From an uncultured Bdellovibrionales bacterium (lineage in GTDB: Bacteria; Patescibacteriota; Minisyncoccia; Moranbacterales; UBA2206): a DNA stretch of 60,819 bases. Shown here one piece after another: positions 19,467 to 31,681 of the stretch. Location of the stretch: assembly GCA_964547585.1 (NCBI GenBank), contig CAZJOI010000001.1:54037-114855 (forward strand), written 5' to 3'. How positions within the stretch are numbered: position 1 is the first letter of the stretch; each line of letters opens with the position of its first letter. The notes beneath the pieces were generated by a model that saw only the letters and a program-made list of their open reading frames with translations, was not told where the DNA came from and did not search any database. Both the position numbers and the translations under genes were made by a program.

Positions 19467-21092
19467 ATGGATAGTGCAATAGATAAAAATATTACAGATT
19501 TAAAAGATTTGGTTTTTAGTTATTACGCGAATAAAATTGAAAAAAGAGATGTGCACTTTCTTTTTGTCATTCATCTTACGCGTACCATGGAAGTATATAT
19601 AGAAGATTGGTTGAAAAATTTTCAAAGTGTGGGGATAATTTCTATTCCATATTCAGAAATACCAGAAGTGAAAGAGAAATTAGGGAAACAGACTAAGATT
19701 TATAGTCCAAAAGATGTATCAGAAATACCCGATCTTATATTTGAAATTTGTAATTCTCATCCTGATAAAAGTATTTGTCTAGTAGAGATAGGTGGATATT
19801 CCGCCTTGATGGAAAAAGACCCAGGTAACATAGTTGGATCTGTGGAAGATACTAATCAGGGATACTGGAACTTCAAAAAATATGAGTCAAGACTTAAGTT
19901 TCCAGTTATTAGCATTGCTCAAACTAATTTAAAAAACATTGAGAATAGATTTGTTGGAACTTCCATAAGTTATTCATTGGAGAAATTCGTCAGAAAGCAC
20001 TTTAATAAAGATCTCATAGCCATGAAAAATATTTTGGTTATGGGATATGGAGAAATTGGTCGGGGAACAGCCCAAAAGTTAAAAAGCACATTGGCCAATG
20101 TGTATGTTTATGATAGTGATCCTATAAATGTTATGTTGGCGAGGATTGATGGTTTTAACATAGCGGATAAAATATTTGCTATTGCTCAAGCCGATATAAT
20201 AATAGGAGCTACGGGACAGAGATCTTTGCAGATAAGCGACGTTGATTATTTGAAAAACAATGCTCTTCTGGCTAGTGCTTCGTCTAAGCAAGTTGAATTT
20301 CCCATGAATGAATTGAAGCAGTGCATGACTTATGAAAGTAAATATCTGAATTCCTATAAAAATAAAAATGGAACTTTTCATGTTGCTTATAACGGATTTC
20401 CTATAAATTTTATTGATGACTCTGCTTTCGGAGAAGTTTTTGATATCGTGATGTCAAGTCTTTTGTTGGCGGTCGATAACCTTTTGGAGTCCAAACCATT
20501 ACCTAGGGTATATGACTTGGAATTGAGATTGCAACAAGAGGTGGTAAGAAAATATTTTGAGTTGTATGAAGTAGATGATTATGAAAAATTTCTTTTTGTG
20601 GAAGAGGCCAAGAAAGAAAGGCATGATGCATCGAGTGCAATAGTGGTAAGCAAAAAATACAGAGATGAATTAATGGTTTTACTCCTAAAACATGAAAAAA
20701 TTGGTAAATGGATTCCTGTTGGAGGACACGTGGAAAGATTTGAATCTCCGGAGAGTGCTGTTATTCGAGAGTTGGGAGAGGAAATCGGAGTTACTCCTTT
20801 TTATTGGTTTGATAAAAATTCGAAAATTTGGTCTTCTTTGCCGATTCTTTTTGAAGAAAAAATGGAAGAAATTCCAGCTCCCGAAGGAGGAACAACTCAC
20901 TTTCATCGTGATTTTATTTTTGTAGCCATAATTGATTATTGCCTGGAAGAAAATTTTGTTGGCGAATCTAAAGAAAGAATAAAATGGTTTACGCTAGACG
21001 AAATATTTAAGCTTAATCCCGATGAAACTACACCAGAAACACTGGATCTGATCAGAGAGATAGAAAAATTCAAAAAAGAATTATTAAGATAA
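19467..21092 (+). CDS. fusion of a divergent S-adenosylhomocysteine-hydrolase-like fold with a C-terminal Nudix hydrolase domain
   Basis: Residues about 30-330 are collinear with AdoHcyase. Pairs (this protein vs AdoHcyase): HLTRTMEVYIE vs HMTVQTAVLIE; VEDTNQG vs SEETTTG; NILVMGYGEIGRGTAQKL..DSDPINVMLARIDGF vs VAVVAGYGDVGKGCAQAL..EIDPINALQAAMEGY. The C-terminus carries the Nudix box GGHVERFESPESAVIRELGEEIGV. Confidence 0.6.
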   Translation: MDSAIDKNITDLKDLVFSYYANKIEKRDVHFLFVIHLTRTMEVYIEDWLKNFQSVGIISIPYSEIPEVKEKLGKQTKIYSPKDVSEIPDLIFEICNSHPDKSICLVEIGGYSALMEKDPGNIVGSVEDTNQGYWNFKKYESRLKFPVISIAQTNLKNIENRFVGTSISYSLEKFVRKHFNKDLIAMKNILVMGYGEIGRGTAQKLKSTLANVYVYDSDPINVMLARIDGFNIADKIFAIAQADIIIGATGQRSLQISDVDYLKNNALLASASSKQVEFPMNELKQCMTYESKYLNSYKNKNGTFHVAYNGFPINFIDDSAFGEVFDIVMSSLLLAVDNLLESKPLPRVYDLELRLQQEVVRKYFELYEVDDYEKFLFVEEAKKERHDASSAIVVSKKYRDELMVLLLKHEKIGKWIPVGGHVERFESPESAVIRELGEEIGVTPFYWFDKNSKIWSSLPILFEEKMEEIPAPEGGTTHFHRDFIFVAIIDYCLEENFVGESKERIKWFTLDEIFKLNPDETTPETLDLIREIEKFKKELLR

Positions 21093-21184
21093 AATATATT
21101 TCGTACCCTATCTATCCTGGCCATAATTTTCTATGCAATTCTTATGTATATTTTTTGAAAGACGTAGGGATTAAATTGTTTTTT

Positions 21185-21357
21185 AAAAAGGCTTATGAAG
21201 GCCTTTTTGCTTACCTCGGATTAGGCATAATTTTATTGAAATGCTTAAAATAAGCCATTTGTTGTCTTTTTTTTGACAAAGTAAGTCCTCAGGTGTATAT
21301 TCTAAAGTCAGTCGATTTTGACTGAAAGTTCTTAAAAAATCATAAAAAGAAGGAGGT
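21185..21357 (+). promoter_or_regulatory. repeated terminator/operator/promoter/5' UTR module, copy P1
   Basis: AAAAAGGC..GCCTTTTT hairpin. Palindromic ATGCTTAAAATAAGCCAT at 21241-21258. TTGACA(21273-21278), 17 nt, TATATT(21296-21301) with a TGt extended -10. UTR hairpin TCAGTC..GACTGA. AAGGAGGTG. Confidence 0.6.
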
Positions 21358-21430
21358 GAAAAAGCGAGGCTTAGCGGTTAATGTGTTGGCACGAAAAGAA
21401 ATCTCTAACCCAGCAGAGGAGGTATGTATC

Positions 21431-22168
21431 ATGGAAAAATCATCTAATGCTTTTGAGCTTGCTCAGTACTTTGGGCAACAGGTGGAGGTAAAAACAAGGG
21501 TTGGACTCTTCAACGGATTCGTTATCAAGAGCTGTGAAGGACTCAATGCTTATGTCAGGGGAGAAATTATTAATGAATTTTTTCCGATGACAGTTGCAGC
21601 CTTTAGGCAGCGTTTTAACAATGAGTGGTTCCGCAGTGCGGTTGAACAACGAATGTTTAACTCGGATGTCTTGATTCTTGTTTTCGACGAGAAACAGCAG
21701 GGAGTTGGAGTTTGGGTTTTTGATGAGATTGAAATCAAGTATGACGTATATAATAAATGGGGGATATATGTTGCTATGATTTCTATCCGTCAAGAATACC
21801 AATGTATCGGTATGCACAAGGGTCTTCTGGATGTTTCGCATCATCATACAGTGAGAGGTCATTTCGACTTTACCATTTGTCGGACGCAAAATCCGATTGT
21901 GGCTACTGCTTGGTGGAATAAGTATGGCAATGTTTATCCTCTCGCCAACGAACCGGATGAAGATATAAAGGTTGTTGGAAGAATTACTGCCAAGAGAGTA
22001 GGATTTGACCATGCATACGAATCAAATCATATGATTGCTAGGGGCGTATATAATGGTGAATCTCTCCACGGCGAACCTTTTCATGTAGACAATTGTCTAG
22101 ACGGAAAGCTGTTTAATCTTATCGATTACCGCAAGGGGGACGCTGTAGTTTTGGTGTCTAGGGCTTGA
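21431..22168 (+). CDS. hypothetical protein, possibly GNAT-like acyltransferase fold
   Basis: The ATG at 21431 has GAGGAGG 8 nt upstream. The ORF track starts at GTG 21356, inside the module's SD. VAMISIRQEYQCIGMHKGLL resembles GNAT motif A. The gene is visibly more GC-rich than its neighbours. Confidence 0.45.
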   Translation: MEKSSNAFELAQYFGQQVEVKTRVGLFNGFVIKSCEGLNAYVRGEIINEFFPMTVAAFRQRFNNEWFRSAVEQRMFNSDVLILVFDEKQQGVGVWVFDEIEIKYDVYNKWGIYVAMISIRQEYQCIGMHKGLLDVSHHHTVRGHFDFTICRTQNPIVATAWWNKYGNVYPLANEPDEDIKVVGRITAKRVGFDHAYESNHMIARGVYNGESLHGEPFHVDNCLDGKLFNLIDYRKGDAVVLVSRA

Positions 22169-22296: not shown

Positions 22297-23094
22297 CTAA
22301 AATAAATTTAATTTACTTTTGCTGGCAGTAATTGCCAAAATTCCCTTATAACTTTCTTCTCCCACGAAGATAGGATAAAATTCTTTGTTTGATCTTATTT
22401 TTTTTCCAGCGGAACATCCAATGGTTGCATCTTTTTTTATTAACTTAAAGTTTTTGACATTTTTGCTGGTTTCAAAAAGCAGAGGAACTTTATAGGAGAC
22501 GCCAACGGTATATAGTTCCTTTTTGTCATGTAGTATCACGGGTCCTTTAATCATGCCTAAGTTTTTTAGAACCGTCATGATTTCAAGCAAGGCTTTTCTG
22601 TAATTAGCCCCCTTTTTGTCTGGACCATATTCAATGGCCAGTCCAATTTTTGCAAATCTTATCATCTCTCCTCCACCAAAAACATTTTTTCTTATCAAGG
22701 CTACATTTTTGCAGGGGACCAGACGCAAAAGATTTTTAGTTGTTTTTTGTAGATTAGTGACAATCACAATCCGATCAAAGTCAGAAGTTGTGGCATGAAT
22801 ATCAATTACGATATCCGAGTCTTCAATCTCCTTGCTTATGCAGTAGGCCAAGCGTTCTTCGTAGTTTCCATTTTTCTTTCCGGGGAAAGAGCGATTAAGA
22901 TCCTTGGTTATCATTCTTTGCTTTTTTTGCATAGCTTTCTCATTAGCAATAATTAGTTTCAGTGATCCTTTCAGTAGATCTACTTTCTTCAATTCGTCTA
23001 TGACTTTTTTGCCAATTACCTCGTCGCCATGTAAACAGCCAACAATGGAGACCAGTGGTTTGCCTTGTCCAATTTTTGTAATATTGAGTCTCAT
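22297..23094 (-). CDS. succinylglutamate desuccinylase/aspartoacylase (AstE/AspA) family zinc deacylase
   Basis: IVGCLHGDEVIG, DLNRSFPG and IDIHATT motifs. Confidence 0.7.
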   Translation of the reverse strand: MRLNITKIGQGKPLVSIVGCLHGDEVIGKKVIDELKKVDLLKGSLKLIIANEKAMQKKQRMITKDLNRSFPGKKNGNYEERLAYCISKEIEDSDIVIDIHATTSDFDRIVIVTNLQKTTKNLLRLVPCKNVALIRKNVFGGGEMIRFAKIGLAIEYGPDKKGANYRKALLEIMTVLKNLGMIKGPVILHDKKELYTVGVSYKVPLLFETSKNVKNFKLIKKDATIGCSAGKKIRSNKEFYPIFVGEESYKGILAITASKSKLNLF

Positions 23095-23293
23095 AAAGTT
23101 AGATTAAAAATTAAAACGACCTCGTTTGGGAAGGTCGGTTGTTTGCTTATTTTTGAAATATCTAAAGCCGACCTCTATCAATAGGTAAAGAAAAAAGAAA
23201 AGAAGAAGTTGCCTTTTAGTGATATTTTATTCATAATTTTATCTTGAGGCAAGTATATCAAGTTTGCCAGAAAAAGCAAATAATTATTTTTTT

Positions 23294-23444
23294 AAAGGCT
23301 TTGATATGCCTTTTTTGTTTGCCTTGGGTTGGGGATAATTTTATTAAAATGCTTAAAATAAGCCATTTTTGTCTTTTTGTTATTGACATTTTTGTTGGAC
23401 GAGTTATTATAATGATAGCTTGATTAATTTTGAGCTTGATTAAT
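23294..23444 (+). promoter_or_regulatory. repeated module copy P2 upstream of the small peptide gene
   Basis: AAAGGC..GCCTTT hairpin. ATGCTTAAAATAAGCCAT at 23349-23366. TTGACA at 23383-23388 and TATAAT at 23408-23413. Direct repeat AGCTTGATTAAT x2 at 23417-23428 and 23433-23444. Confidence 0.55.
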
Positions 23445-23461
23445 AATTTAATTAAAGAAGT

Positions 23462-23566
23462 ATGAAGACAAAAAAAGCCAAATCAGAAAAAAGCCAAATA
23501 AAGGAGATTGTAAGACTAAGAGTTGGTAAGCACACTTGCTCTACTTGTTCAGGAGGACACAAATAG
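23462..23566 (+). CDS. 34-aa Lys-rich peptide with a C-terminal HTCSTCSGGHK (candidate RiPP precursor)
   Basis: My translation is MKTKKAKSEKSQIKEIVRLRVGKHTCSTCSGGHK. It is not in the supplied ORF track (too short). It lies behind module P2 and 211 nt upstream of the radical SAM/SPASM gene. Confidence 0.35.
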   Translation: MKTKKAKSEKSQIKEIVRLRVGKHTCSTCSGGHK

Positions 23567-23777
23567 CAAATGTTCTCGTCGTCTTGGGTCTGTTTTGTAA
23601 ATTTGCACAAGTTTTTGTGATACTGTGTTTTTGTGCTAAGTTTGATTTTATTTTGAATGAGTAATTTTTTGTTTAGCCCGATTATTTCTGTGGTAATTTT
23701 TTAAAAATATAAATCTGAAAATTTGGTTATTTAACTATTTTTGTTTACAAACTAAATTACTGGTTTCACAAAATTTT

Positions 23778-24872
23778 ATGATTATAGAATGTTCAAAAAA
23801 TAAATACGAAGTATTTTTTGAAATGATTCAATTTGAAATTACTGGAAAATGCAATATGAAATGTGACCATTGTCGAGCGTGGAAAGAGCCAAAGGGCCAC
23901 ATGAAAATGGAAGTTATAGAGAAGGTATTGGATTTTGCTGTACCCGAATCAAGACATGAAATTAGATTTACGATTTCAGGAGGCGAGCCATTACTCAATC
24001 CTCATTTTTTTGATATTCTAAAATTAATAAAGAAAAAAATTAATCAATACGGAAAGAGACTTGATCATGCAGTTATTACAACCAATGGATCTCTTCTAAC
24101 ATCAGAAATAATTAAAAAAATAGAAGATCTTGATTTGGGGGAAATATTTTTGCAAGTCAGCATCGACAGTTTCGAGGCTGAAATACATGATAAATTCCGT
24201 CATTTTCCAGGTGCTTTTTATAAAGCCAAGAAGGCACTGGAAATGGTTGCAAAATCGAAATTGACTCCATTGTTACGAACAACAATTGTTTCAGGAGATG
24301 CAAAAAATGACTTTCGTATATTAGAAGAGATGATAAAAATGGCTCAAGAAACTGGGGTAGGAAAAATTAGTTTTGGGCCGGTGATTCCTACTGGTAAAGC
24401 GCAAATGAATCAAGGTATAATGCTGAAACCACTTGAAAAAAAAGCTTTTATAAAAAAGCTTTTAGTCCTTAAGCAAAAATATCCAAACATTGGCATATCC
24501 ACAGAAGATCCAGTCAAATTTTCTGTTTGTCCAAAAGAATGGGATTTTGGAGAATTTGATTATTCGAAATCTGATTTTATTGGTGGTTGCTCGGCAGGTG
24601 TAACTAATATGAATGTTTTTTCAAATGGAATTATTACTCCGTGCTCTATGTTGCAAGAGCCAATTGTAAATGTTATAGGAAAATCTTCGAGTCAAATTTA
24701 TAAAGAATATATTTCTTCTGATGTTATAAAAAATCTTGTAGAAAGAAATGTTGGTGGTAAGTGTAAGACATGCAGCATCAAAAGACTGTGTGGAGGGTGT
24801 AGGGCTGCTGCTGAAGGAATATCTGGAAACTATTTGGCTGAAGATCCGACATGTTGGAAAGTAAGGAAATAA
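23778..24872 (+). CDS. radical SAM enzyme with C-terminal SPASM domain
   Basis: CNMKCDHC (CxxxCxxC) near residue 25. SPASM-type C-x12-G-x4-C (CSAGVTNMNVFSNGIITPC), then CKTCSIKRLCGGC and a final C. Confidence 0.85.
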   Translation: MIIECSKNKYEVFFEMIQFEITGKCNMKCDHCRAWKEPKGHMKMEVIEKVLDFAVPESRHEIRFTISGGEPLLNPHFFDILKLIKKKINQYGKRLDHAVITTNGSLLTSEIIKKIEDLDLGEIFLQVSIDSFEAEIHDKFRHFPGAFYKAKKALEMVAKSKLTPLLRTTIVSGDAKNDFRILEEMIKMAQETGVGKISFGPVIPTGKAQMNQGIMLKPLEKKAFIKKLLVLKQKYPNIGISTEDPVKFSVCPKEWDFGEFDYSKSDFIGGCSAGVTNMNVFSNGIITPCSMLQEPIVNVIGKSSSQIYKEYISSDVIKNLVERNVGGKCKTCSIKRLCGGCRAAAEGISGNYLAEDPTCWKVRK

Positions 24873-24931
24873 CAAAAAATATGGTTGCTTGGTAATATTT
24901 GTTTGTATATTTTCGATTAAGAAAATTTAAT

Positions 24932-25059
24932 GAGGCAATGAAGCGGCCCAACCACCCGCCGAGCCTCCGCCACTTTCCAGCGAAACGGAAAAAAGAGTGC
25001 CCAAAAATAAGGGAATTCGAGTGGAACCCCCCACCCTTTTGTAAAAAGAGTGGGGCTCG
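24932..25059 (+). promoter_or_regulatory. T-box-like leader of thrS with a very short Stem I
   Basis: AATTCGAGTGGAACCCCC(25014-25031) resembles the T-box consensus AAUUAGGGUGGUACCGCG. The helix CGAG/CTCG, a 7-nt bulge TGGAACC and the helix CCCCACCCTTTT/AAAAGAGTGGGG reproduce the antiterminator architecture. The upstream hairpin GAGGC..GCGG-CCCAACCAC-CCGC..GCCTC displays ACC-A (Thr codon plus purine). Confidence 0.5.
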
Positions 25060-25111
25060 AAGTCATTTATTTTTTGGCATTTTTTGTTTAATTAAAATAA
25101 ATTAAAAAAAT

Positions 25112-26926
25112 ATGAAAAACCAACCAACCAAACTAGAAATTATTCGCCATTCTTCCGCTCATGTTTTGGCCGCGGCGGTTTTGGAAATGTTTCCAGAGGC
25201 TAAATTTGGCATTGGACCAGCCATTGAAAACGGCTTCTACTATGACTTTGAATTGCCCCGCACCCTTATTCCTGAAGATCTTCCATTGCTTGAAGAAAAA
25301 ATGAAAGAAATAATCAAGGCCAACTATAAATTTGAACAAGCGGATGTTTCCATCAATGATGCTAAGAAAGATTTCCAAAAACTTGGACAAACCTACAAGT
25401 TGGAACTTATTGATGATTTGGAAAAAGAGGGCAAGAAAAAAGTTTCTGTCTATAAATCAGATTCTTTTGTAGATCTTTGCTCTGGTCCACATCTTGATTC
25501 AACTGGAGAAATTGATCCAAGGGCACTGAAGCTCACTCGTATTTCCGGTGCCTATTGGAAATCAGATGAAAAAAATAAACAACTCCAAAGAATATATGGT
25601 GTCGCTTTTGATAATAAAAATGATTTAAATGAGTACCTTCGTATGCTTGAGGAGGCCGAAAAAAGAGATCATCGAAAATTAGGCAAGGAATTGGACTTGT
25701 TTCATATTGACCAAAAAGTAGGACTCGGTCTTCCCTTGTGGCATGCTAAGGGAGCATTGCTTTGGAGAATAGTTGAAGATTTTTGGTATAGCGAGCATCT
25801 AAAAAATAATTATGACTTAGTTCGCTCACCTCATATTGGAAACAAAACTTTATGGGAAACTTCTGGGCATTGGGGTTTTTATAATGCTAGCATGTATCCA
25901 CCTATTGAAATTGGGCAAACGCTTGAAGAAAGACAGAAAAATCAAATAATCAAGGAATCCGAAGAATATTTATTAAAACCGATGAATTGCCCTTTTCATG
26001 TTGAAATTTATAAAAATAATCTTTGGTCATATCGCGATCTTCCTCTCAGATGGGCTGAATGCGGAACTGTTTATCGTTATGAAAAAAAAGGTGAACTTTC
26101 TGGGCTTACTCGTGTTCGTGGTTTCACTCAGGATGATGCTCATATCATTTGTCGTATTGATCAAGTTGAGGATGAATTAAAAAAAGTAGTAGATTTCATA
26201 TTATTCATGTTTAAATCTTTCGGTTTCAATACAAATATAATCAATGTTTATCTTTCCCTTCGTGATTCAAAAAATAAAGAAAAATATGCCGGAAACGATG
26301 AAGGCTGGGAATTTACTGAAAGCGTTTTGCGGAAAGTAGCCATAGAAAAAAAACTTAATTTCAAGGAAGAAAAGGGCGAGGCTGCCTTTTATGGACCGAA
26401 ACTGGATTTCAAATTGAAGGATGTTCTTGGCAGAGAATGGCAATGTTCAACTCTCCAATTTGATTTTAACCTTCCGGAAAGATTTGACATGACTTTTATT
26501 AACAGCAAGGGCGAAAATGAAAGACCATATGTTTTGCACAGAGCTTTATTTGGGTCATTTGAAAGATTTATAGCACTTCTTATTGAACATTACGCAGGCG
26601 CTTTTCCAACTTGGCTTTCTCCTGTACAAGTGATGATAATTCCTATTTCTGAAGAAAAATTTGGGGATTATGCCGAGGAAGTGCAAAAAAAATTAGTGGC
26701 TATTGGCGTACGTGCTAAAATTGATGCTACTTCAGAAAGTTTAGGAAAAAGAATTCGCGAAGCGGAAAAACAAAAAATTCCATACATGCTAGTGGTTGGC
26801 GAAAAAGAAGTGGAGACTATTTCAGTTGCCGTAAGAGAGTATAAAACTAAAAATCAAGACATTATGAAAATGAGTGATTTTATGGAAAAGATAAGGAGTG
26901 AAATTAAAAAAAGGAAAAGTGAATAA
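25112..26926 (+). CDS. thrS: threonine--tRNA ligase (no N-terminal TGS domain)
   Basis: It starts directly in the editing/second-additional domain (IRHSSAHVLA). A class II core and an anticodon-binding domain follow. 604 aa. Confidence 0.95.
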   Translation: MKNQPTKLEIIRHSSAHVLAAAVLEMFPEAKFGIGPAIENGFYYDFELPRTLIPEDLPLLEEKMKEIIKANYKFEQADVSINDAKKDFQKLGQTYKLELIDDLEKEGKKKVSVYKSDSFVDLCSGPHLDSTGEIDPRALKLTRISGAYWKSDEKNKQLQRIYGVAFDNKNDLNEYLRMLEEAEKRDHRKLGKELDLFHIDQKVGLGLPLWHAKGALLWRIVEDFWYSEHLKNNYDLVRSPHIGNKTLWETSGHWGFYNASMYPPIEIGQTLEERQKNQIIKESEEYLLKPMNCPFHVEIYKNNLWSYRDLPLRWAECGTVYRYEKKGELSGLTRVRGFTQDDAHIICRIDQVEDELKKVVDFILFMFKSFGFNTNIINVYLSLRDSKNKEKYAGNDEGWEFTESVLRKVAIEKKLNFKEEKGEAAFYGPKLDFKLKDVLGREWQCSTLQFDFNLPERFDMTFINSKGENERPYVLHRALFGSFERFIALLIEHYAGAFPTWLSPVQVMIIPISEEKFGDYAEEVQKKLVAIGVRAKIDATSESLGKRIREAEKQKIPYMLVVGEKEVETISVAVREYKTKNQDIMKMSDFMEKIRSEIKKRKSE

Positions 26927-26970: not shown

Positions 26971-27020
26971 ATGAAGAGGCTTTTTTTGTTTGCTTTGGAT
27001 CGGACATAATTTTGTGATAA
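26971..27020 (+). repeat. degenerate partial copy (P3) of the repeated module
   Basis: ATGAAGAGGCTTTTTTTGTTTGCTTTGGATCGGACATAATTTTGTGATAA aligns with the first third of P1, P2 and P4. The palindromic site and TTGACA are missing. Confidence 0.4.
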
Positions 27021-27096
27021 TTTTTTAAATGTCTACATTGAAAATGTAAAAGAATATTAATCGTATTACAATACAAAGGAATAAATATAAAAAATT

Positions 27097-27708
27097 ATGA
27101 TAAAGGCAATTATATTTGATTATAATGGGGTGGTTAAAGCAATAAATAAATATTTTTTTGATGATGTCGAGTTGATTTTTAGTCTATCTGCGGAAGAAAA
27201 AGAATATGCAAAAAAAATGACCTGTGATCTTTTTGAACAATTTGATAAAGGTTTATTAGGCGAAGATAGTTTCTGGTTGAAATTTTCGCAACGCATAAAT
27301 AAATCAATGCCGACAAATGCGAAGGAGTTGGCTCGTAAATTATTTAACGAACATTTTGAACTTTACGAAGAGGTTGTAAATATGCTTAAAAATTTAAAAA
27401 CCAATGGATATGTTACTGCAGTTTTATCGGACACTTTCCCTTATATGGCCGATATTACTCGTGAGCGTAATGGCTACGATTATTTCGATAAAGTTTATTT
27501 GTCCTGCGAAGTTGGTTTTGTAAAACCGCAAAAAGAATTTTATGAGTTGGCTGTCAAAGATCTTGCCGTACTTCCTAGCGAATGCATTTTTATCGATGAC
27601 AATGAAGATAATCTTTTGCCAGCTGAAAAATTAGGAATGAAAACAATTTTAGCAAAAAAACCAGATCAAATTGTCGAAGATGTTTGGGCAATCATAAATA
27701 AGATGTGA
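27097..27708 (+). CDS. HAD-superfamily hydrolase
   Basis: IIFDYNGV (motif I-like), VLSDT and IFIDDNEDN. Confidence 0.7.
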   Translation: MIKAIIFDYNGVVKAINKYFFDDVELIFSLSAEEKEYAKKMTCDLFEQFDKGLLGEDSFWLKFSQRINKSMPTNAKELARKLFNEHFELYEEVVNMLKNLKTNGYVTAVLSDTFPYMADITRERNGYDYFDKVYLSCEVGFVKPQKEFYELAVKDLAVLPSECIFIDDNEDNLLPAEKLGMKTILAKKPDQIVEDVWAIINKM

Positions 27709-27715
27709 TTATTGT

Positions 27716-28720
27716 CTATTCAAAATCCACTTCATTGGCATTGAGTTCATAAAGGAAATTATAATTTCCTTTTTCTATTTCTTCTTCCATATCTGTTACA
27801 TTTTTGCCTTCGAATTCAGAAAACCCAAGAGCTTTCAGTCCATTGACGGTCATCATTTTTACTACATCTTTGGCAGAAATATGACTGGAATCAAGATTCA
27901 CTCCTTTTTGTACGAGAGCTGCAAATTTGCCGGCTTCCCAAACATCCAATCTATTGGAGCTGGCAGCGCCGTCTGTTCCCAAGCAAACATTGATATTTCT
28001 TTCGAGCATTTTTCCAAGAGGCATGATACCCGAGCCCAATTTCAAATTACTCAAAGGGCAATGAACAACATTAACTTTTCTTTCGGCCATAATATCCAGA
28101 TCTTCGTCAGTGATCCAAATGCAATGAGCCAAAAGAGATTTTTCATTCAAAAGACCAAGCTTATCCAAATAGGCAGTTGGAGTTAAACCAGTTTTTTTCA
28201 AACAATCGTCAAATTCTTTTTTGGTTTCGGCCAGATGAATATGCAAAAGGGCATCATATTTTTCAGCCAGCTCTTTGGCTTTGATCAGATTTTTTTCTGA
28301 AACCGCATAAATTGAATGTGGCGCAACGGCTACTTTTACCGCTGGGTTGTTTTGATATTTGATTAAAAGTTTTTCAGTAATTTCTAAAGCCTTTTCTGGA
28401 TTTTCAGCTTCGGGAGTAGGGAAGTCCAAAATACCTCCACCAATCACAACGCGCATTCCTAGCTCTCCGGAGGCTTCAGCCACTCTGTCTTCAAAAAAAT
28501 ACATATCTGCAAAAATTTTGATACCATTTTTTTTCATTTCCAAAATAGCTTTTTTGGTTTTTTCGTACACAAAATCGGAATTAACCTGATCCTTTTCGGC
28601 TGGCCAAATGTATTCTTCTAGCCATTTTTGCAATGGCAAATCTTCAGCCATTCCGCGAAAAGCGATCATAGCTGCATGAGTATGTACATTAACAAGAGGA
28701 AGATTGAATTTTTGTTTCAT
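27716..28720 (-). CDS. amidohydrolase of the MTA/SAH deaminase (MtaD)/chlorohydrolase group
   Basis: VHTHAAM, HIHLAE, HC, GTDGAAS.N..D ligand pattern. It is shorter than typical MtaD because the N-terminal beta-sandwich is absent. Confidence 0.7.
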   Translation of the reverse strand: MKQKFNLPLVNVHTHAAMIAFRGMAEDLPLQKWLEEYIWPAEKDQVNSDFVYEKTKKAILEMKKNGIKIFADMYFFEDRVAEASGELGMRVVIGGGILDFPTPEAENPEKALEITEKLLIKYQNNPAVKVAVAPHSIYAVSEKNLIKAKELAEKYDALLHIHLAETKKEFDDCLKKTGLTPTAYLDKLGLLNEKSLLAHCIWITDEDLDIMAERKVNVVHCPLSNLKLGSGIMPLGKMLERNINVCLGTDGAASSNRLDVWEAGKFAALVQKGVNLDSSHISAKDVVKMMTVNGLKALGFSEFEGKNVTDMEEEIEKGNYNFLYELNANEVDFE

Positions 28721-28980: not shown

Positions 28981-30102
28981 ATGAAAGAAATACTCAAAAA
29001 TAGTTGTCCTGATGGAGTTCATTTTTTAATCGAATTTTTTGGTTGTGATAAAAAACAGATTGATGATATAGATTTTCTGAAAAAAACATTAGAAGGGGGA
29101 GTTAAGGCTTCAGAAATAAAAATATTGGACAAATCCTTTTTTAAATTTGAACCGCAGGGCGTTACTGGTTTTTTGCTGTTGGAAGCTTCTCACGTGTCTA
29201 TACATACCTGGCCAGAATTCAGTTATGCTGCTTGTGATATTTTCAGCTGTGCTCCATATGACAAGACTCGAGAAATTGCTTATTTTTTAAGAAAAAATAT
29301 TATGCACGAAAAGATGTCCGTAGATGAAATCAAAAGAGGTTATAAGTATTTTGATTTCGAAAAATACATCAACAAGGAAAACGAGCTTACCATCCCTGTC
29401 TATGCGAATGGCGAACAAATGAAAATAAAAATAAAGGAAGTTTTGAGTGGGGTAAAATCCAGTTTTCAAGACATTCTTTTTGTTGATACGGATGATTTTG
29501 GAAAATGTCTGGTAATTGATGGAATAATGCAAACAGCCGAAAGTGATCATGAGGTTTATGATAAAGCGATTTTACGAGAATTAAAAAAAGAAGATCAGAA
29601 AATTCTGATTTTAGGTGGTGGCGATGGCTATGTGGCCAGAGAAGCCCTGAATATTAATCCTGATTTAAAAGTGAGTGTGGTTGATTTGGATGCTGAAGTG
29701 GTAAAGGGATGTGAACAATTTTTGGATCAAAAAGTGTTCAAGGATTTTCGAGTTAAACTTTGTATTGAAGACGCTTTTAAATATTTGAAGGATATGTCCA
29801 AAGATGGAGAGATGTTTGATGGAGTGGTTGTTGATTTGACGGATGAGCCTGAGAGAGAAGATGCGCTAGCTGATTTCAAAAAATTCTATGAAGAAATTTT
29901 GGCGTTGTCCAAAGATGTTTTAAAAGATGGGGGCTGGGTAAGTATGCAGGCAGGAGCCGCGGAAACGACTAAAGATTATTTTAACGCTGTTTCAGTGTTG
30001 GAAAAGACGCTTTCAAAAAAAGGATTTCAGGATATTTCAAGAGAGGACTTCTTGATCCCAAGTTTTGGGGAGAAAAATGCCTTTCTGTATGGCAAGAAAT
30101 AA
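28981..30102 (+). CDS. fused S-adenosylmethionine decarboxylase proenzyme (SpeD/SpeH type) and spermidine synthase-like aminopropyltransferase
   Basis: The N-terminal roughly 115 aa contain GFLLLEASHVSIHTWPEFSYAACDIFSC, the pyruvoyl AdoMetDC processing region. The C-terminal part carries LILGGGDGYVAREAL, VDLD and VVDLTD, which are SpeE-type motifs. Confidence 0.75.
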   Translation: MKEILKNSCPDGVHFLIEFFGCDKKQIDDIDFLKKTLEGGVKASEIKILDKSFFKFEPQGVTGFLLLEASHVSIHTWPEFSYAACDIFSCAPYDKTREIAYFLRKNIMHEKMSVDEIKRGYKYFDFEKYINKENELTIPVYANGEQMKIKIKEVLSGVKSSFQDILFVDTDDFGKCLVIDGIMQTAESDHEVYDKAILRELKKEDQKILILGGGDGYVAREALNINPDLKVSVVDLDAEVVKGCEQFLDQKVFKDFRVKLCIEDAFKYLKDMSKDGEMFDGVVVDLTDEPEREDALADFKKFYEEILALSKDVLKDGGWVSMQAGAAETTKDYFNAVSVLEKTLSKKGFQDISREDFLIPSFGEKNAFLYGKK

Positions 30103-30127
30103 AAAAGGGCAAATTTAAAAATATACC

Positions 30128-30310
30128 AAAAAAAGCTTTAAAATAGCTTTTTTTGTTTGCCTAGAATTAGGCATAGTTTTATCAAGATGCTTGAAATAAG
30201 CCATTTGTTGTCTTTTTGCTTTGACAAAATGGTCATTTGGGTGTATACTTACAAATCAGTCAATAATGACTGACAGTACCTAAAAAATCAAACAAAATGG
30301 AGGTGTCGCG
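30128..30310 (+). promoter_or_regulatory. repeated module copy P4
   Basis: AAAAAAAGC..GCTTTTTTT hairpin. GCCTAGAATTAGGC. ATGCTTGAAATAAGCCAT at 30187-30204. TTGACA(30221-30226), 17 nt, TATACT(30244-30249). UTR hairpin TCAGTC..GACTGA. GGAGGTG lies 5 nt before the ATG. Confidence 0.6.
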
Positions 30311-31012
30311 ATGAACGGTTTAGAGAAAGCCGCGAAATTCGCGGCGAAAGTGTTATTTTTAGCGGTAATTATTGTAGTGGCAACAGCTGACCTTAATGAC
30401 TGGTTTGTTGTTGCTGTATTGCCGATTATTATTGCAAGTTGGCAATTTATTCGGAGAAAATTTATATTAGTTACTGGCATATTGCTCTATGAGAGAATAA
30501 CAACTTTAATCTCAAGAGCACCGGATGTTTTGGCTGTTATTCTTTTGTTGAATGGGATGCATTTTGTGGTAGTATTTTTCATTAGTTTTATGATAAATAT
30601 TATCATGTATACAGCATTCATTAAGGGATATTATTTTCTTCCTGATTTTAAGGAAACTCTGGAAGAATTCAATGCCTTTAAAAAGAAGCAAATAGTTTGG
30701 ATAGAGTATGGATGGGAAGGATTAATGAGCTGGTTATGGGACAAGTCCTCTCAGTGGGTTTTGAAAAATAAAACACTGATGTTTCTTGTAGGCAGTCCAA
30801 TTTTTTTCGATCCAGACTGGGTAACATTCATTTTGGTGGAGGGAACTGAGATCAAAAAAAAGGACTTAATTTGCATTACACTTCCCTCTGTGTTTGTTTC
30901 AACAATCTTCTGGACTTCAGTATGTGTGCTGGGTGTTTATGGATTTTGGTCATACGACGATATGATAGCAAGAATCTACGAACACTTTGTCCATATGATT
31001 ATTAGAACTTAG
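30311..31012 (+). CDS. hypothetical multi-pass membrane protein
   Basis: 233 aa with about 6 hydrophobic helices and a strong SD. No recognisable family. Confidence 0.5.
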   Translation: MNGLEKAAKFAAKVLFLAVIIVVATADLNDWFVVAVLPIIIASWQFIRRKFILVTGILLYERITTLISRAPDVLAVILLLNGMHFVVVFFISFMINIIMYTAFIKGYYFLPDFKETLEEFNAFKKKQIVWIEYGWEGLMSWLWDKSSQWVLKNKTLMFLVGSPIFFDPDWVTFILVEGTEIKKKDLICITLPSVFVSTIFWTSVCVLGVYGFWSYDDMIARIYEHFVHMIIRT

Positions 31013-31111: not shown

Positions 31112-31681
31112 ATGAAAAATAAAAAAGAAAAAAGCAAAAGAACTTTCTCTTGGGTTAGCCCAAAATTGGAAGCACGAGAAACTGGCAAATTTGGCAAAGG
31201 TCTTTTTGCTACAGACAAAATAAAAAAAGACGAGATAGTTATTGCCTTTGGTGGTTATGTGATGACTACCGAAGAATTTTATAAATTACCAAGTGATGTA
31301 ATGCATTACCCTTCACAAATATTTGACAATTTACTTTTGGGAATAAAGCATATGAATGAAATAGAAGACGGCTATTATTTAAACCATAGTTGCGAGCCTA
31401 ATGTTGGTCATAAGGGACAAATATTTATGGTTGCTATGAAAAATATAAAGAAAGGCGAAGAAGTCACCTTTGATTATGGTATGGAGATGTATCCAGAAAA
31501 AATAAAATTGCCAAAAGGAAGAGAAAGGTATACCAGCATGAAGTGTGATTGTGGATCAAAGAAATGCAGAAAAATTGTTACCGAAAATGATTGGAAAATA
31601 CCAGAATTGCAAAAAAGATATGACGGTTACTTTCAGTGGTTTATACAAGAAAAAATTAATAAATTAAAAAAGAAAAAATAA
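31112..31681 (+). CDS. SET-domain protein (putative lysine methyltransferase)
   Basis: LNHSCEPN, a TFDYG segment (EEVTFDYG) and a post-SET-like CDCGSKKC. Confidence 0.75.
   Translation: MKNKKEKSKRTFSWVSPKLEARETGKFGKGLFATDKIKKDEIVIAFGGYVMTTEEFYKLPSDVMHYPSQIFDNLLLGIKHMNEIEDGYYLNHSCEPNVGHKGQIFMVAMKNIKKGEEVTFDYGMEMYPEKIKLPKGRERYTSMKCDCGSKKCRKIVTENDWKIPELQKRYDGYFQWFIQEKINKLKKKK

What the first reader, a model, noticed from the sequence alone, without database searches (positions are those of the whole stretch)
23417..24872. Candidate RiPP pair: a 34-aa Lys-rich peptide ending HTCSTCSGGHK next to a radical SAM/SPASM enzyme
Seen: an unannotated ORF at 23462-23566 encodes MKTKKAKSEKSQIKEIVRLRVGKHTCSTCSGGHK. 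It lies directly behind promoter module P2 and a 12-nt direct repeat (AGCTTGATTAAT x2). The next gene, 211 nt downstream, has CxxxCxxC near its N-terminus and a C-terminal SPASM-type Cys pattern. Established knowledge: SPASM-domain radical SAM enzymes commonly install thioether or carbon-carbon crosslinks, or modify Cys/Ser, in short co-encoded peptides. Examples are sactipeptides, ranthipeptides, SCIFF, PQQ and anSME. Inference: the Cys-x2-Cys core, flanked by Thr/Ser and His, is the substrate. Two cautions apply. The enzyme has no obvious N-terminal RRE/PqqD-like domain, since its cluster motif starts at about residue 25. No transporter or protease is adjacent, although the co-regulated membrane protein at 30311 could serve as one.
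Basis: partly seen in the sequence, partly recalled or inferred. Interest (0 to 1): 0.65.

Follow-up and report, generated by a model that had tools for sequence, protein, structure and literature searches.

The report
Unannotated Cys peptide with radical-SAM maturase
A tiny unannotated gene for a lysine-rich, cysteine-containing peptide is a real gene that always travels with one radical SAM enzyme in ultra-small bacteria and archaea, which marks an undescribed modified-peptide system that is often encoded next to the threonyl-tRNA synthetase gene.

Summary
The 34-aa ORF (23462-23566) is a real gene. Against a relative whose enzyme is 95% identical, pN is 0.08 and pS is 0.65, and the last 14 codons show 0 nonsynonymous and 5 synonymous changes.

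A homologous short ORF lies beside the enzyme's homologues in all 23 distinct loci that can be judged, in Patescibacteria, Woesearchaeota and one Firmicutes MAG. Each has a K/R-rich leader, a beta-strand-like (I/V)R(L/V)x(I/V)GK segment and a C-terminal core around one invariant Cys. Most have a clear Shine-Dalgarno sequence.

The enzyme (23778-24872) is a radical SAM/SPASM protein with no RRE. It falls far below every NCBIfam equivalog cut-off. Its closest structures are CteB, anSME, SkfB and SuiB. Its seven auxiliary Cys map onto CteB's 3+4 ligand scheme.

Best reading: a new RiPP-like precursor/maturase family with a Cys-centred modification, most likely a thioether. The chemistry is inferred, not shown.

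The unexpected part is that thrS is adjacent in 10 of 25 loci, in at least six arrangements and as two ThrRS types. One clade adds a CCA-enzyme-like nucleotidyltransferase, a GNAT and an amidohydrolase. The biological role is unknown.

The parts
23282..23381 (+). Copy 2 of a roughly 100-nt intergenic module (stacked short hairpins, each followed by a T-run) that precedes four genes in this window. It is specific to this genome and is not part of the conserved peptide/enzyme unit.
   Evidence: Searches show the four copies: 21174-21273, 23282-23381, 26979-27030 and 30120-30219. It is absent upstream of the same promoter in L161.
23383..23410 (+). Sigma-70-type promoter, TTGACA-16-TATTAT, for the peptide gene and probably the enzyme gene as well.
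   Evidence: 11 of 12 consensus matches. The core is conserved in L161 although the sequence upstream of it is unrelated.
23417..23444 (+). Two perfect 12-nt direct repeats (AGCTTGATTAAT), 4 nt apart, at the predicted 5' end of the transcript. Possibly an operator; function unknown.
   Evidence: The repeat is degenerate but recognisable in L161.
23462..23566 (+). Precursor-peptide gene (34 aa). It has a K-rich N-terminus, a beta-strand-like IVRLRVGK segment and the core HTCSTCSGGHK, with invariant Cys26.
   Evidence: pN 0.080 and pS 0.648 against L161; 0 and 0.50 in the last 14 codons. Family alignment A6. Codon table. SD sequences in relatives. Present in 23 of 23 evaluable loci.
23567..23777 (+). 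211-nt spacer between the peptide gene and the enzyme gene. No terminator, no significant structure and no Rfam match, so co-transcription is plausible.
   Evidence: no + strand terminator; z = -0.11; no relevant Rfam match. In L169 and L164 the equivalent spacer holds a T-box-like leader.
23778..24872 (+). Radical SAM/SPASM enzyme (364 aa) without an RRE. The radical SAM cluster uses C25/C29/C32. The auxiliary-cluster Cys are C271, C289 and C341 (AC1-type) and C329, C332, C338 and C359 (AC2-type).
   Evidence: Pfam PF04055, 72.7 bits. Invariant Cys in A1. AF2 model pLDDT 94.3. Foldseek: CteB 5e-17, anSME 3e-16. Ligand mapping plus PMC10177961.
24925..25085 (+). Structured leader of thrS with a T-box-type antiterminator core: UUCGAG-UGGAACC-CCCCAC...GUGGGG-CUCGAA at 25016-25061.
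   Evidence: Folds at -53.8 kcal/mol, z = -3.88. A structural pattern scan gave 5 hits in 496 kb, with 1.0 expected, all in leaders of thrS or of the enzyme gene. Rfam's T-box model does not score it.
25112..26926 (+). Threonyl-tRNA synthetase, the recurrent neighbour of the pair.
   Evidence: TIGR00418, 718.9 bits against a cut-off of 383.65. ThrRS is adjacent in 10 of 25 distinct loci.

Best explanation
The small ORF encodes the precursor of a ribosomally made, post-translationally modified peptide, and the downstream radical SAM/SPASM enzyme is its dedicated maturase.

Shown:
- The two genes are co-inherited.
- The peptide is under protein-level purifying selection.
- The enzyme has the fold and Fe-S ligand pattern of peptide-modifying SPASM enzymes.

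Inferred mechanism:
- The peptide docks without an RRE, probably through its conserved alternating hydrophobic/basic strand, (I/V)-R-(L/V)-x-(I/V)-G-K.
- The thiolate of the single invariant Cys (C26) binds the open iron of auxiliary cluster 1, which has only three protein Cys ligands, as in CteB, PapB and Tte1186.
- 5'-deoxyadenosyl radical abstracts a hydrogen from a nearby residue of the small C-terminal core.
- An intramolecular thioether forms, giving a small ring at the C-terminus.

In the window the unit is transcribed from the promoter at 23383-23410, with the enzyme gene probably read through the terminator-free 211-nt spacer. No protease or exporter is part of the conserved unit, so the product probably stays leader-attached or intracellular, as is suspected for SCIFF. 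Its biological role is unknown. The recurrent thrS neighbour suggests a link to threonyl-tRNA synthetase or tRNA metabolism.
For: Gene pairing:
- A peptide of this family occurs in 23 of 23 evaluable distinct loci, at 35-95% enzyme identity, in Patescibacteria, Woesearchaeota and one Firmicutes MAG. It is usually 14-215 nt upstream on the same strand.

The small ORF is coding:
- pN/pS is 0.080/0.648 overall and 0/0.50 in the core.
- Ser is encoded by TCN and AGY, Gly by all four codons, and Cys by TGC 13 times and TGT 8 times.
- GGAGG-type SD sequences precede most copies.

The core:
- One Cys is invariant, inside G-K-[NGH]-[TSA]-C-[ST]-x-[CS].

The enzyme:
- Pfam Radical_SAM match.
- CX3CX2C plus seven invariant SPASM Cys.
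- The family profile's best PDB match is CteB at 3e-24, over CteB residues 97-427, that is after its RRE. SkfB, anSME, PqqE and SuiB follow.
- Foldseek finds the same set, on a model with pLDDT 94.
- The aligned Cys reproduce CteB's scheme of three Cys on AC1 and four on AC2 (PMC10177961). That paper also reports direct binding of the substrate's cross-linking Cys (as selenocysteine) at the auxiliary clusters of the homologous thioether-forming enzymes PapB and Tte1186.
Against: - No chemistry has been observed. A thioether is only the most economical reading.
- The best NCBIfam scores go to tetrapyrrole enzymes (NirJ2, AhbD), although far below their cut-offs.
- Pfam's SPASM model (PF13186) does not reach E <= 0.01 on this protein.
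- The last cluster motif is CX2CX5CX2C, not the usual CX2CX5CX3C.
- A seven-Cys SPASM pattern is not unique to thioether-forming enzymes.
- No acceptor residue is conserved across the whole family.
- There is no RRE, protease or exporter, so this is not a classical RiPP cluster.
- Two loci showed no peptide, but both contigs are short or end early: L163 ends inside thrS, and L166 has only 229 nt upstream of the enzyme gene.
Confidence: 0.72

Rival explanations
1. Same precursor/enzyme pair, different chemistry. The enzyme oxidises the invariant Cys (or the Cys/Ser at +3) to formylglycine or another oxidised form, as anSME does. Alternatively it makes a C-C or C-O crosslink or an epimer, not a thioether.
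For: - anSME is as close in fold as CteB (E 3e-16, TM 0.69), has the same size and also lacks an RRE.
- Position +3 alternates between Cys and Ser, the two residues that anSME accepts.
- Many cores end in an aromatic residue followed by Lys (YK, WK, HK), which could take part in a carbon-carbon crosslink.
Against: - The anSME substrate motif C/S-x-P/A-x-R is absent from every peptide.
- The family has seven auxiliary Cys, not eight, and no Cys lies 6 residues before C271, where anSME has its extra ligand (the anSME ligand list is from my own knowledge).
- Only Cys26 is invariant. The aromatic residue and Lys are missing in the 35-38% clade.
Confidence: 0.15
2. The peptide is not a substrate. 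It is a small metal-binding or thiol-carrying partner of the enzyme (a redox partner or sulfur donor), and the enzyme's true substrate is something else, for instance tRNA-Thr, ThrRS or a small molecule.
For: - The window-type core H-x-C-x2-C-x3-H could bind a metal.
- thrS is the most frequent neighbour.
- One clade adds a tRNA-nucleotidyltransferase-like protein.
- The K/R-rich N-terminus could bind RNA.
Against: - Seven of the 21 aligned peptides have a single Cys and no His (the C-S/T-T-S-G-S-Y-K cores), so metal binding by the peptide alone is not conserved.
- The closest characterised relatives all act on peptide or protein Cys, Ser or side chains.
- SPASM enzymes with a short co-encoded Cys peptide are, in established cases, maturases of that peptide.
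Confidence: 0.07
3. The small ORF is a regulatory upstream ORF or leader peptide. It would sense Thr/Ser/Cys-tRNA supply and control the enzyme gene or thrS, and it would not be a functional product.
For: - It lies in the 5' region of the transcript.
- In L164 it sits directly upstream of a T-box-like thrS leader, and in L169 upstream of a T-box-like leader of the enzyme gene.
- The core contains Thr codons.
Against: - In L173/L174 and L179 the peptide gene lies about 2 kb downstream of the enzyme gene.
- There are only two Thr codons, not a run.
- Selection is on the amino-acid sequence, with an invariant Cys, across lineages that have different codon usage and different spacers of 14-215 nt.
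- Its coupling to the enzyme gene (23 of 23 loci) is tighter than its coupling to thrS (10 of 25).
Confidence: 0.03
4. The enzyme is a tetrapyrrole-type SPASM enzyme (an AhbD/NirJ-like 'AdoMet-dependent heme synthase', as JGI names several homologues), and the neighbouring ORF is irrelevant.
For: The top NCBIfam matches are NirJ2 (1.7e-41) and AhbD (2e-39). JGI gives this name to several homologues.
Against: - The scores of 143 and 136 bits are far below the 500-bit cut-offs.
- No ahb or nir genes were seen near any locus.
- The hosts are CPR/DPANN-type organisms, which are generally regarded as lacking tetrapyrrole synthesis (my own knowledge).
- The peptide's universal co-occurrence is not explained by this reading.
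Confidence: 0.03

Closest known systems
SCIFF/ranthipeptide systems (CteA/CteB, Tte1186a/Tte1186, PapA/PapB)
   Same: - A short peptide with a Lys-rich leader and a Cys/Ser/Thr-rich C-terminal core, paired with one SPASM radical SAM enzyme.
- CteB is the best PDB match by sequence and by fold.
- The same arrangement of auxiliary-cluster ligands: three Cys on AC1 and four on AC2.
- Like SCIFF, the pair usually has no dedicated protease or exporter and sits among housekeeping genes.
   Different: - No N-terminal RRE. The cluster motif starts at residue 25, against residue 104 in CteB.
- One to four Cys instead of six, and the peptides are 17-35 aa long.
- The peptides match no NCBIfam model, and the enzyme is far below the ScfB-related and PapB cut-offs.
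- The hosts are CPR/DPANN, not Clostridia.
- Recurrent linkage to thrS.
Anaerobic sulfatase-maturating enzyme (anSME)
   Same: About 365 aa, no RRE, a SPASM domain, and action on a Cys or Ser within a polypeptide. The fold match is as good as for CteB (TM 0.69).
   Different: - No sulfatase substrate and no C/S-x-P/A-x-R motif.
- Seven auxiliary Cys, not eight.
- A dedicated short co-encoded peptide.
Haft-type RRE-less SPASM peptide systems (GeoRSP, ACGX-repeat peptide system, TIGR04053)
   Same: These are among the best NCBIfam matches (about 1e-35 to 1e-33) over the full length of enzymes of about 325-366 aa. Some distant family peptides contain A-C-G-I, which resembles ACGX.
   Different: The scores of 114-123 bits are far below the cut-offs of 395-400. 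The peptides are not repeats. I did not retrieve members of these systems for direct comparison.
Microcin C-type aaRS-targeting peptide-nucleotides. This is a functional analogy only, and only for the extended clade.
   Same: In the 40-46% clade the peptide is encoded with a nucleotidyltransferase, a GNAT acetyltransferase, a hydrolase and an aminoacyl-tRNA synthetase. The peptide, nucleotide-transferring enzyme, GNAT and hydrolase recall the parts list of microcin C biosynthesis and immunity (my own knowledge).
   Different: - The nucleotidyltransferase has a Pol-beta/CCA-enzyme fold, not the E1-like fold of MccB.
- A radical SAM enzyme is central.
- The C-terminal residue is Lys, not the amino acid cognate to the synthetase.
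- The window itself lacks the nucleotidyltransferase, the GNAT and the Amidohydro_2 gene.
- Nothing about this analogy has been tested.

Membership tests
Radical SAM superfamily | CX3CX2C cluster motif and a match to Pfam PF04055 above its gathering score | tested here: met
   C25-x3-C29-x2-C32 is invariant in 31 sequences. PF04055 scores 72.7 bits against 29.5.
SPASM-domain subfamily | C-terminal seven-Cys motif CX9-15GX4C ... CX2CX5CX3C ... C that binds two auxiliary 4Fe-4S clusters | tested here: met
   - C271-x12-G-x4-C289; C329-x2-C332-x5-C338-x2-C341; C359. All are invariant.
- Full-length fold matches to CteB, anSME and SuiB.
- Caveats: the last spacing is X2, not X3, and Pfam PF13186 is not hit on this protein at E <= 0.01.
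RiPP precursor/maturase pair | A short co-encoded peptide with a conserved leader and core that co-occurs with the enzyme across genomes | tested here: met
   23 of 23 evaluable loci. Alignment A6. Purifying selection.
RiPP precursor/maturase pair | Demonstrated post-translational modification of the peptide | not testable with these tools
   Needs co-expression or in vitro reconstitution with mass spectrometry.
RRE-dependent SPASM maturases (CteB, PapB, SuiB, PqqE with PqqD, MftC with MftB) | An N-terminal or separately encoded PqqD-like RiPP recognition element | tested here: not met
   - Only 24 residues precede the cluster motif.
- The family profile matches CteB from residue 97 onwards.
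- No PqqD-like gene is listed among the Pfam-annotated neighbours in any locus.
SCIFF (TIGR03973) with ScfB maturase | A peptide of about 45 aa with six Cys that matches the SCIFF model, and an enzyme above the ScfB cut-off | tested here: not met
   The peptides match no NCBIfam model even at E <= 10. The ScfB-related model NF040492 scores 74 bits against a cut-off of 855.
Sactipeptide / ranthipeptide (defined by chemistry) | A Cys S to C-alpha thioether (sactipeptide) or a Cys S to C-beta/C-gamma thioether (ranthipeptide) | not testable with these tools
   Only indirect support: an invariant Cys and a three-Cys AC1, as in CteB.
anSME | A sulfatase-type C/S-x-P/A-x-R substrate motif and fully ligated auxiliary clusters (eight Cys) | tested here: not met
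   The motif is absent from all 21 aligned peptides. Only seven auxiliary Cys are invariant. anSME does not appear among the 25 best NCBIfam families shown.
AhbD / NirJ tetrapyrrole SPASM enzymes | A score above the NCBIfam equivalog cut-off and an ahb or nir gene context | tested here: not met
   143 and 136 bits against cut-offs of 500. No such neighbours were seen.
Mycofactocin system | An MftA-type peptide ending in GVY, an MftB chaperone, and MftC above its cut-off | tested here: not met
   - TIGR03962 scores 64.8 bits against a cut-off of 265.
- The cores do not end in GVY.
- One creatininase-family (MftE-like) gene lies upstream of the peptide in L169 only.
T-box leader (for the thrS leader at 24925-25085) | A match to Rfam RF00230 at its gathering score, with Stem I and a specifier plus an antiterminator carrying a UGGN bulge | tested here: inconclusive
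   - The window gives no RF00230 match.
- L169 scores 43.2 bits and L164 35.4 bits, against a gathering score of 93.
- An antiterminator-like arm-UGGAACC-hairpin-arm core is present in the window.
- Stem I and the specifier were identified only by eye.

The most novel reading that the evidence does not exclude
The peptide/radical-SAM pair is functionally tied to threonyl-tRNA synthetase and tRNA 3'-end chemistry. The modified peptide would be an effector of ThrRS or a product that depends on it. It might be an aaRS-directed inhibitor or Trojan-horse compound made by episymbiotic CPR/DPANN cells, with the adjacent thrS acting as the co-regulated or resistant target. Alternatively it might be a peptide-derived factor that acts together with ThrRS. 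In one clade it would be built with a CCA-enzyme-like nucleotidyltransferase, a GNAT and an amidohydrolase. That would be a new class of translation-linked modified peptide, conserved across bacteria and archaea with ultra-small genomes.
Probability: 0.15. Interest if true: 0.85.

Novelty: new variant of a known kind. Interest (0 to 1): 0.62.

Why it matters
- CPR bacteria and DPANN archaea have minimal genomes, so a peptide/maturase pair kept across both groups probably does something important for them.
- The peptide gene is almost entirely missed by gene callers. Seven of ten tested sequences are absent from a collection of 15 billion proteins.
- Several enzyme homologues carry the probably wrong label "heme synthase".
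- The system offers an RRE-less SPASM maturase with a very small substrate whose single essential residue is one Cys. That makes it a convenient model for how such enzymes recognise and cross-link peptides.
- The repeated, rearranged linkage to thrS, and in one clade to a tRNA-nucleotidyltransferase-like protein, raises a testable link between a modified peptide and aminoacyl-tRNA synthesis.

Tried and rejected
- NCBIfam and Pfam on the peptides found no family, even at E <= 10.
- Literature searches found no description of this pair. The terms tried were radical SAM, RiPP, Patescibacteria, CPR, DPANN, SCIFF, ranthipeptide and threonyl-tRNA synthetase. The tRNA-deacylase paper concerns AlaX-family deacylases and is not this system.
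- I asked whether the window's unannotated 270-aa ORF (21356-22168, same promoter module) is the partner protein seen in other loci. It is not: hhalign probability 0.1% and no BLAST hit.
- I asked whether the window's AstE/AspA-like gene, its membrane protein at 30311, or a creatininase gene is conserved near the pair. None is.
- I looked for an RNA element in the 211-nt spacer. There is no Rfam match, no terminator and no excess structure.
- Rfam's T-box model does not score the window's thrS leader. I kept only the structural-pattern evidence.
- I considered that the conserved ORF might really be T-box Stem I RNA, because the Rfam alignment in L169 starts inside the ORF. I rejected this because of the codon-level evidence and because the ORF occurs in loci with 14-nt spacers and no T-box.
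- Sequence searches for the 260-aa partner gave nothing. Only structure prediction and Foldseek identified its fold.
- My first regular expressions missed the peptides in L091 and L175, where Tyr precedes the Cys. I found them by reading the ORF lists.
Full report
**1. What is in the window**

- A near-consensus promoter, TTGACA-16-TATTAT, lies at 23383-23410.
- Two perfect AGCTTGATTAAT repeats follow at 23417-23428 and 23433-23444.
- An ATG ORF at 23462-23566 encodes MKTKKAKSEKSQIKEIVRLRVGKHTCSTCSGGHK.
- A 211-nt spacer follows. It has no terminator, no excess structure and no Rfam match.
- A 364-aa gene lies at 23778-24872. It has C25-x3-C29-x2-C32 and a Cys-rich C-terminus.

The window has 36% G+C and carries EF-G, EF-Tu, SecY, NrdD and ComEC, so it looks like ordinary chromosome of a Patescibacteria-type organism. 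A 34-codon ORF is not remarkable here by itself, because 110 ORFs of at least 30 aa overlap the surrounding 12 kb.

**2. The small ORF is a real gene**

- A metagenomic contig, L161, encodes an enzyme 95% identical to the window's and keeps the ORF.
- Over the ORF, pN is 0.080 and pS is 0.648. In the last 14 codons there are five synonymous and no nonsynonymous changes. The sequence upstream of the promoter cannot be aligned at all.
- Across 21 loci, conserved Ser positions use both TCN and AGY codons. Gly at -4 uses all four codons. The invariant Cys is TGC 13 times and TGT 8 times. Selection therefore acts on the amino-acid sequence and not on an RNA motif.
- Most copies are preceded by a clear GGAGG, AAGGAG or GGGGG ribosome-binding site 5-10 nt before the start codon.

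**3. The peptide always travels with the enzyme**

The enzyme has more than 100 full-length homologues at 35-95% identity. Those with names come from Patescibacteria, Woesearchaeota, Nanoarchaeota and one Firmicutes MAG. I obtained 25 distinct loci that encode orthologues.

In all 23 loci with enough sequence to judge, a short ORF of the same family is present.
- It is usually 14-215 nt upstream of the enzyme gene on the same strand.
- In L173/L174 and L179 it lies about 2 kb downstream, behind one intervening gene.
- In L164 it is on the other strand, upstream of thrS.
- L163 ends inside thrS. In its close relative L164 the peptide lies beyond thrS. L166 has only 229 nt upstream of the enzyme gene. 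I count these two loci as not evaluable.

The alignment (A6) shows three parts:
- a K/R-rich N-terminus;
- a strand-like (I/V)-R/K-(L/V)-x-(I/V)-G-K segment;
- a short C-terminal core, [NGH]-[TSA]-C-[STG]-x-[CS], followed by 1-5 residues.

Only the first Cys (C26 in the window) is invariant. In L091 and L175, which are not in A6, Tyr precedes that Cys.

Core types track enzyme clades.
- TCSTC(S/T)GGHK occurs in the window's closest relatives (L161, L164, L169). The other relatives with at least 50% enzyme identity carry TCSTCGDYK or TCSKCSGSWK.
- C(S/T)TSGSYK, with a single Cys, occurs in the 40-46% clade.
- SC(S/G/C)xC plus 1-2 residues occurs in most of the 35-38% clade.

Seven of ten of these peptides are absent from a collection of 15 billion proteins, and the three that are present carry no functional name. 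None matches any NCBIfam or Pfam model.

**4. What the enzyme is**

- It matches Pfam Radical_SAM at 72.7 bits.
- In a 31-sequence alignment the start MxIE..., the CNMxCxHCRA motif and seven C-terminal Cys are invariant: C271-x12-G-x4-C289, then C329-x2-C332-x5-C338-x2-C341, then C359.
- All 79 NCBIfam matches are far below their curated cut-offs: NirJ2 143 of 500 bits, AhbD 136 of 500, GeoRSP 123 of 400, TIGR04053 121 of 395, ACGX 114 of 400 and PapB 96 of 340. It therefore belongs to no modelled subfamily. The JGI label "AdoMet-dependent heme synthase" on several homologues is probably an over-annotation.
- A profile of the family matches solved structures in this order: CteB (3e-24, over CteB residues 97-427, that is after its RRE), SkfB, anSME, PqqE and SuiB.
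- The AlphaFold model is confident (pLDDT 94.3). Foldseek returns the same set: CteB 5e-17, anSME 3e-16 with TM 0.69, then SkfB, SuiB, TigE, ChlB and PqqE.
- I combined the residue alignment to CteB (the PDB chain numbering is offset by +3) with the published ligand list (PMC10177961). C271, C289 and C341 correspond to the three Cys of auxiliary cluster 1. C329, C332, C338 and C359 correspond to the four Cys of cluster 2.
- Only 24 residues precede the radical SAM motif, so there is no RRE.

**5. Most likely mechanism**

Shown:
- The two genes are co-inherited.
- The peptide is under protein-level selection.
- The enzyme has the SPASM fold and a CteB-like ligand scheme.

Inferred:
- The peptide is the substrate.
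- Its conserved strand provides recognition without an RRE.
- The C26 thiolate binds the open iron of auxiliary cluster 1. Direct binding of the cross-linking residue at the auxiliary clusters is reported for the homologous enzymes PapB and Tte1186.
- 5'-deoxyadenosyl radical abstracts a hydrogen from a nearby residue, and a thioether closes a small C-terminal ring.

No acceptor residue is conserved family-wide. The linkage could therefore be to a C-alpha (sactionine-type, tolerant of residue identity) or could differ between clades. An anSME-like oxidation or a crosslink to the C-terminal aromatic residue or Lys remains possible.

No protease or exporter belongs to the conserved unit. The membrane protein at 30311 shares only the window's repeated promoter module and is never near the pair elsewhere.

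**6. Unexpected context: thrS and tRNA-related genes**

All-against-all clustering of neighbouring genes shows that threonyl-tRNA synthetase is the only recurrent neighbour. It is present in 10 of 25 distinct loci. At least six arrangements occur:
- peptide, enzyme, thrS on one strand (window, L161);
- the enzyme gene convergent with thrS, which has the peptide upstream of it (L164);
- peptide, enzyme, then a convergent P-loop gene and thrS (L170);
- thrS, peptide, enzyme (L167, L081);
- thrS, enzyme, nucleotidyltransferase, peptide (L179);
- peptide, enzyme, nucleotidyltransferase, thrS (archaeal L085/L171).

L163 and L084 also have a thrS gene downstream of the enzyme gene, cut off by the contig end.

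Two different ThrRS types are involved. The full-length bacterial type (TIGR00418) occurs in the window, L161, L164 and L170. An archaeal-type catalytic-only form (NF003068), which matches that model only from about position 140 and so lacks the editing domain, occurs in L081, L167 and L085. By Pfam domains, length (471 aa) and tblastn similarity, the L179 synthetase belongs with this short form, but I did not run it against NCBIfam.

Within the close clade, ThrRS divergence parallels enzyme divergence. Part of the adjacency is therefore inherited synteny. The rearrangements and the change of ThrRS type argue for more than that, but I cannot prove it with 25 loci.

In the close clade thrS has a T-box-like leader.
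- Rfam gives sub-threshold T-box matches in L169 (43 bits) and L164 (35 bits).
- A structural scan for arm-UGGNACC-hairpin-arm found five hits in 496 kb, with 1.0 expected. All five lie in leaders: before thrS in the window (25016-25061), L161, L162 and L164, and before the enzyme gene in L169.

In the 40-46% clade the pair is joined by three more genes.
- One is a protein of about 260 aa with no sequence-family match. Its confident model (pLDDT 90.6) has the head-and-neck fold of class II tRNA nucleotidyltransferases (A-adding enzyme 4wby at 1.2e-8, and CCA-adding enzymes).
- The others are an Amidohydro_2 protein and a GNAT.
- The window has none of these. It carries the minimal version.

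**7. Comparison with known systems, and novelty**

The system works like a SCIFF/ranthipeptide or sactipeptide pair. It is not a member of any defined family:
- there is no RRE;
- the peptides are not SCIFF;
- every equivalog score is below its cut-off;
- the anSME and mycofactocin criteria fail (see the membership table).

I found no description of it in the searchable literature. That search covers open-access papers and bioRxiv only, so prior mention in a large-scale mining study cannot be excluded.

I rate it a new variant of a known kind. The reasons are a compact RRE-less SPASM maturase, a minimal one-Cys peptide, a distribution across CPR bacteria and DPANN archaea, and an unexplained genomic tie to thrS.

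**8. Limits**

- No chemistry, expression or phenotype was measured.
- The sample is 25 loci, many on short contigs.
- Start codons of a few distant peptides (L002, L089, L090) are uncertain.
- The T-box specifier was read only by eye.
- The number of ThrRS copies per genome could not be checked.

Noticed in passing
window 21174-21273, 23282-23381, 26979-27030, 30120-30219: A module of about 100 nt is repeated in front of four genes: the 270-aa unknown ORF at 21356, the peptide gene, the HAD hydrolase at 27097 and the membrane protein at 30311. It consists of stacked short hairpins, each followed by a T-run, including the palindromes TGCCT-N6-AGGCA and GCTTA-AAA-TAAGC, and it ends in a TTGACA-type promoter. 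It is absent upstream of the same promoter in the close relative L161, so it is specific to this genome. It could be an insulator or terminator-plus-promoter cassette, or a regulon operator.
   Followed up: partly
window 21292-21348 and 30240-30296: A second repeat, 57 nt long and 77% identical, lies in the 5' UTRs behind module copies 1 and 4. It contains the hairpin AGTCAGTC-N-TTTTGACTGA and may be a shared regulatory RNA element.
   Followed up: no
window 24925-25085 (core 25016-25061): The G+C-rich thrS leader folds much better than shuffled controls (z = -3.9). It contains a T-box-type antiterminator with a UGGAACC bulge and a possible ACC (Thr) specifier near 24947-24960. Rfam's T-box model does not detect it, so this may be a divergent CPR T-box.
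   Followed up: partly
L169 1306-1511; L164 3268-3447 (- strand): Sub-threshold Rfam T-box matches lie directly after the peptide ORF. In L169 the leader precedes the radical SAM gene, not thrS, so that gene may be under tRNA-sensing control there.
   Followed up: partly
L171 5044-5802; L173 1338-2117; L179 11083-11904: A recurring partner protein of about 260 aa sits next to the enzyme gene in the 40-46% clade. It has no sequence-family match, but its predicted fold is that of the head and neck of class II tRNA nucleotidyltransferases (CCA- and A-adding enzymes), without their tRNA-binding body and tail. Only eight homologues were found, all annotated as hypothetical.
   Followed up: yes
L081 3880-5409; L167 982-2490; L179 8583-9998; L085 7826-9289: Short ThrRS genes lie next to the pair. 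Three of them (L081, L167, L085) match the archaeal-type catalytic-only model, which lacks the editing domain. The L179 gene resembles them by Pfam domains, length and tblastn. Some of these loci look bacterial; L179, for example, carries YceG and a Por_Secre_tail protein. How these organisms edit Ser-tRNA(Thr) is an open question.
   Followed up: partly
window 19467-21092, 27716-28720 (-), 28981-30102, 31112-31681: A cluster of genes related to SAM metabolism surrounds the pair: an AdoHcy-hydrolase-like/NUDIX fusion, a TRZ/ATZ-family deaminase resembling 5'-deoxyadenosine/MTA/SAH deaminases (N-terminally short and below the cut-offs), an AdoMet decarboxylase/spermidine synthase fusion, and a SET-domain protein. 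A 5'-deoxyadenosine deaminase would fit salvage of the radical SAM by-product.
   Followed up: partly
L091 5965-9640: A distant locus on a 749-kb contig has two tandem paralogues of the enzyme, with a family-type peptide (MKKREIKQNSKSNNTEKPRIRIKAGQDYCDRCS, 7197-7298) between them. A third, different radical SAM/SPASM gene and a large multi-pass membrane protein follow. This layout looks more like a classical RiPP cluster.
   Followed up: partly
L169 393-1061: A creatininase-family gene, the family of the mycofactocin peptidase MftE, lies just upstream of the peptide gene. It was seen in this one locus only.
   Followed up: partly
window 22297-23094 (-): An aspartoacylase/succinylglutamate-desuccinylase-like (AstE/AspA) zinc hydrolase is transcribed divergently from the peptide promoter region. 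It is not conserved near the pair in other loci.
   Followed up: partly
window 21356-22168 and 30311-31012: Two genes behind the repeated promoter module, a 270-aa soluble protein and a 233-aa membrane protein, match nothing in Pfam or NCBIfam.
   Followed up: partly
homologues P0043, P0049, P0059, P0081, P0095, P0103: JGI annotates several members of this enzyme family as 'AdoMet-dependent heme synthase'. Given the sub-threshold scores and the universal peptide partner, this is probably a misannotation.
   Followed up: partly
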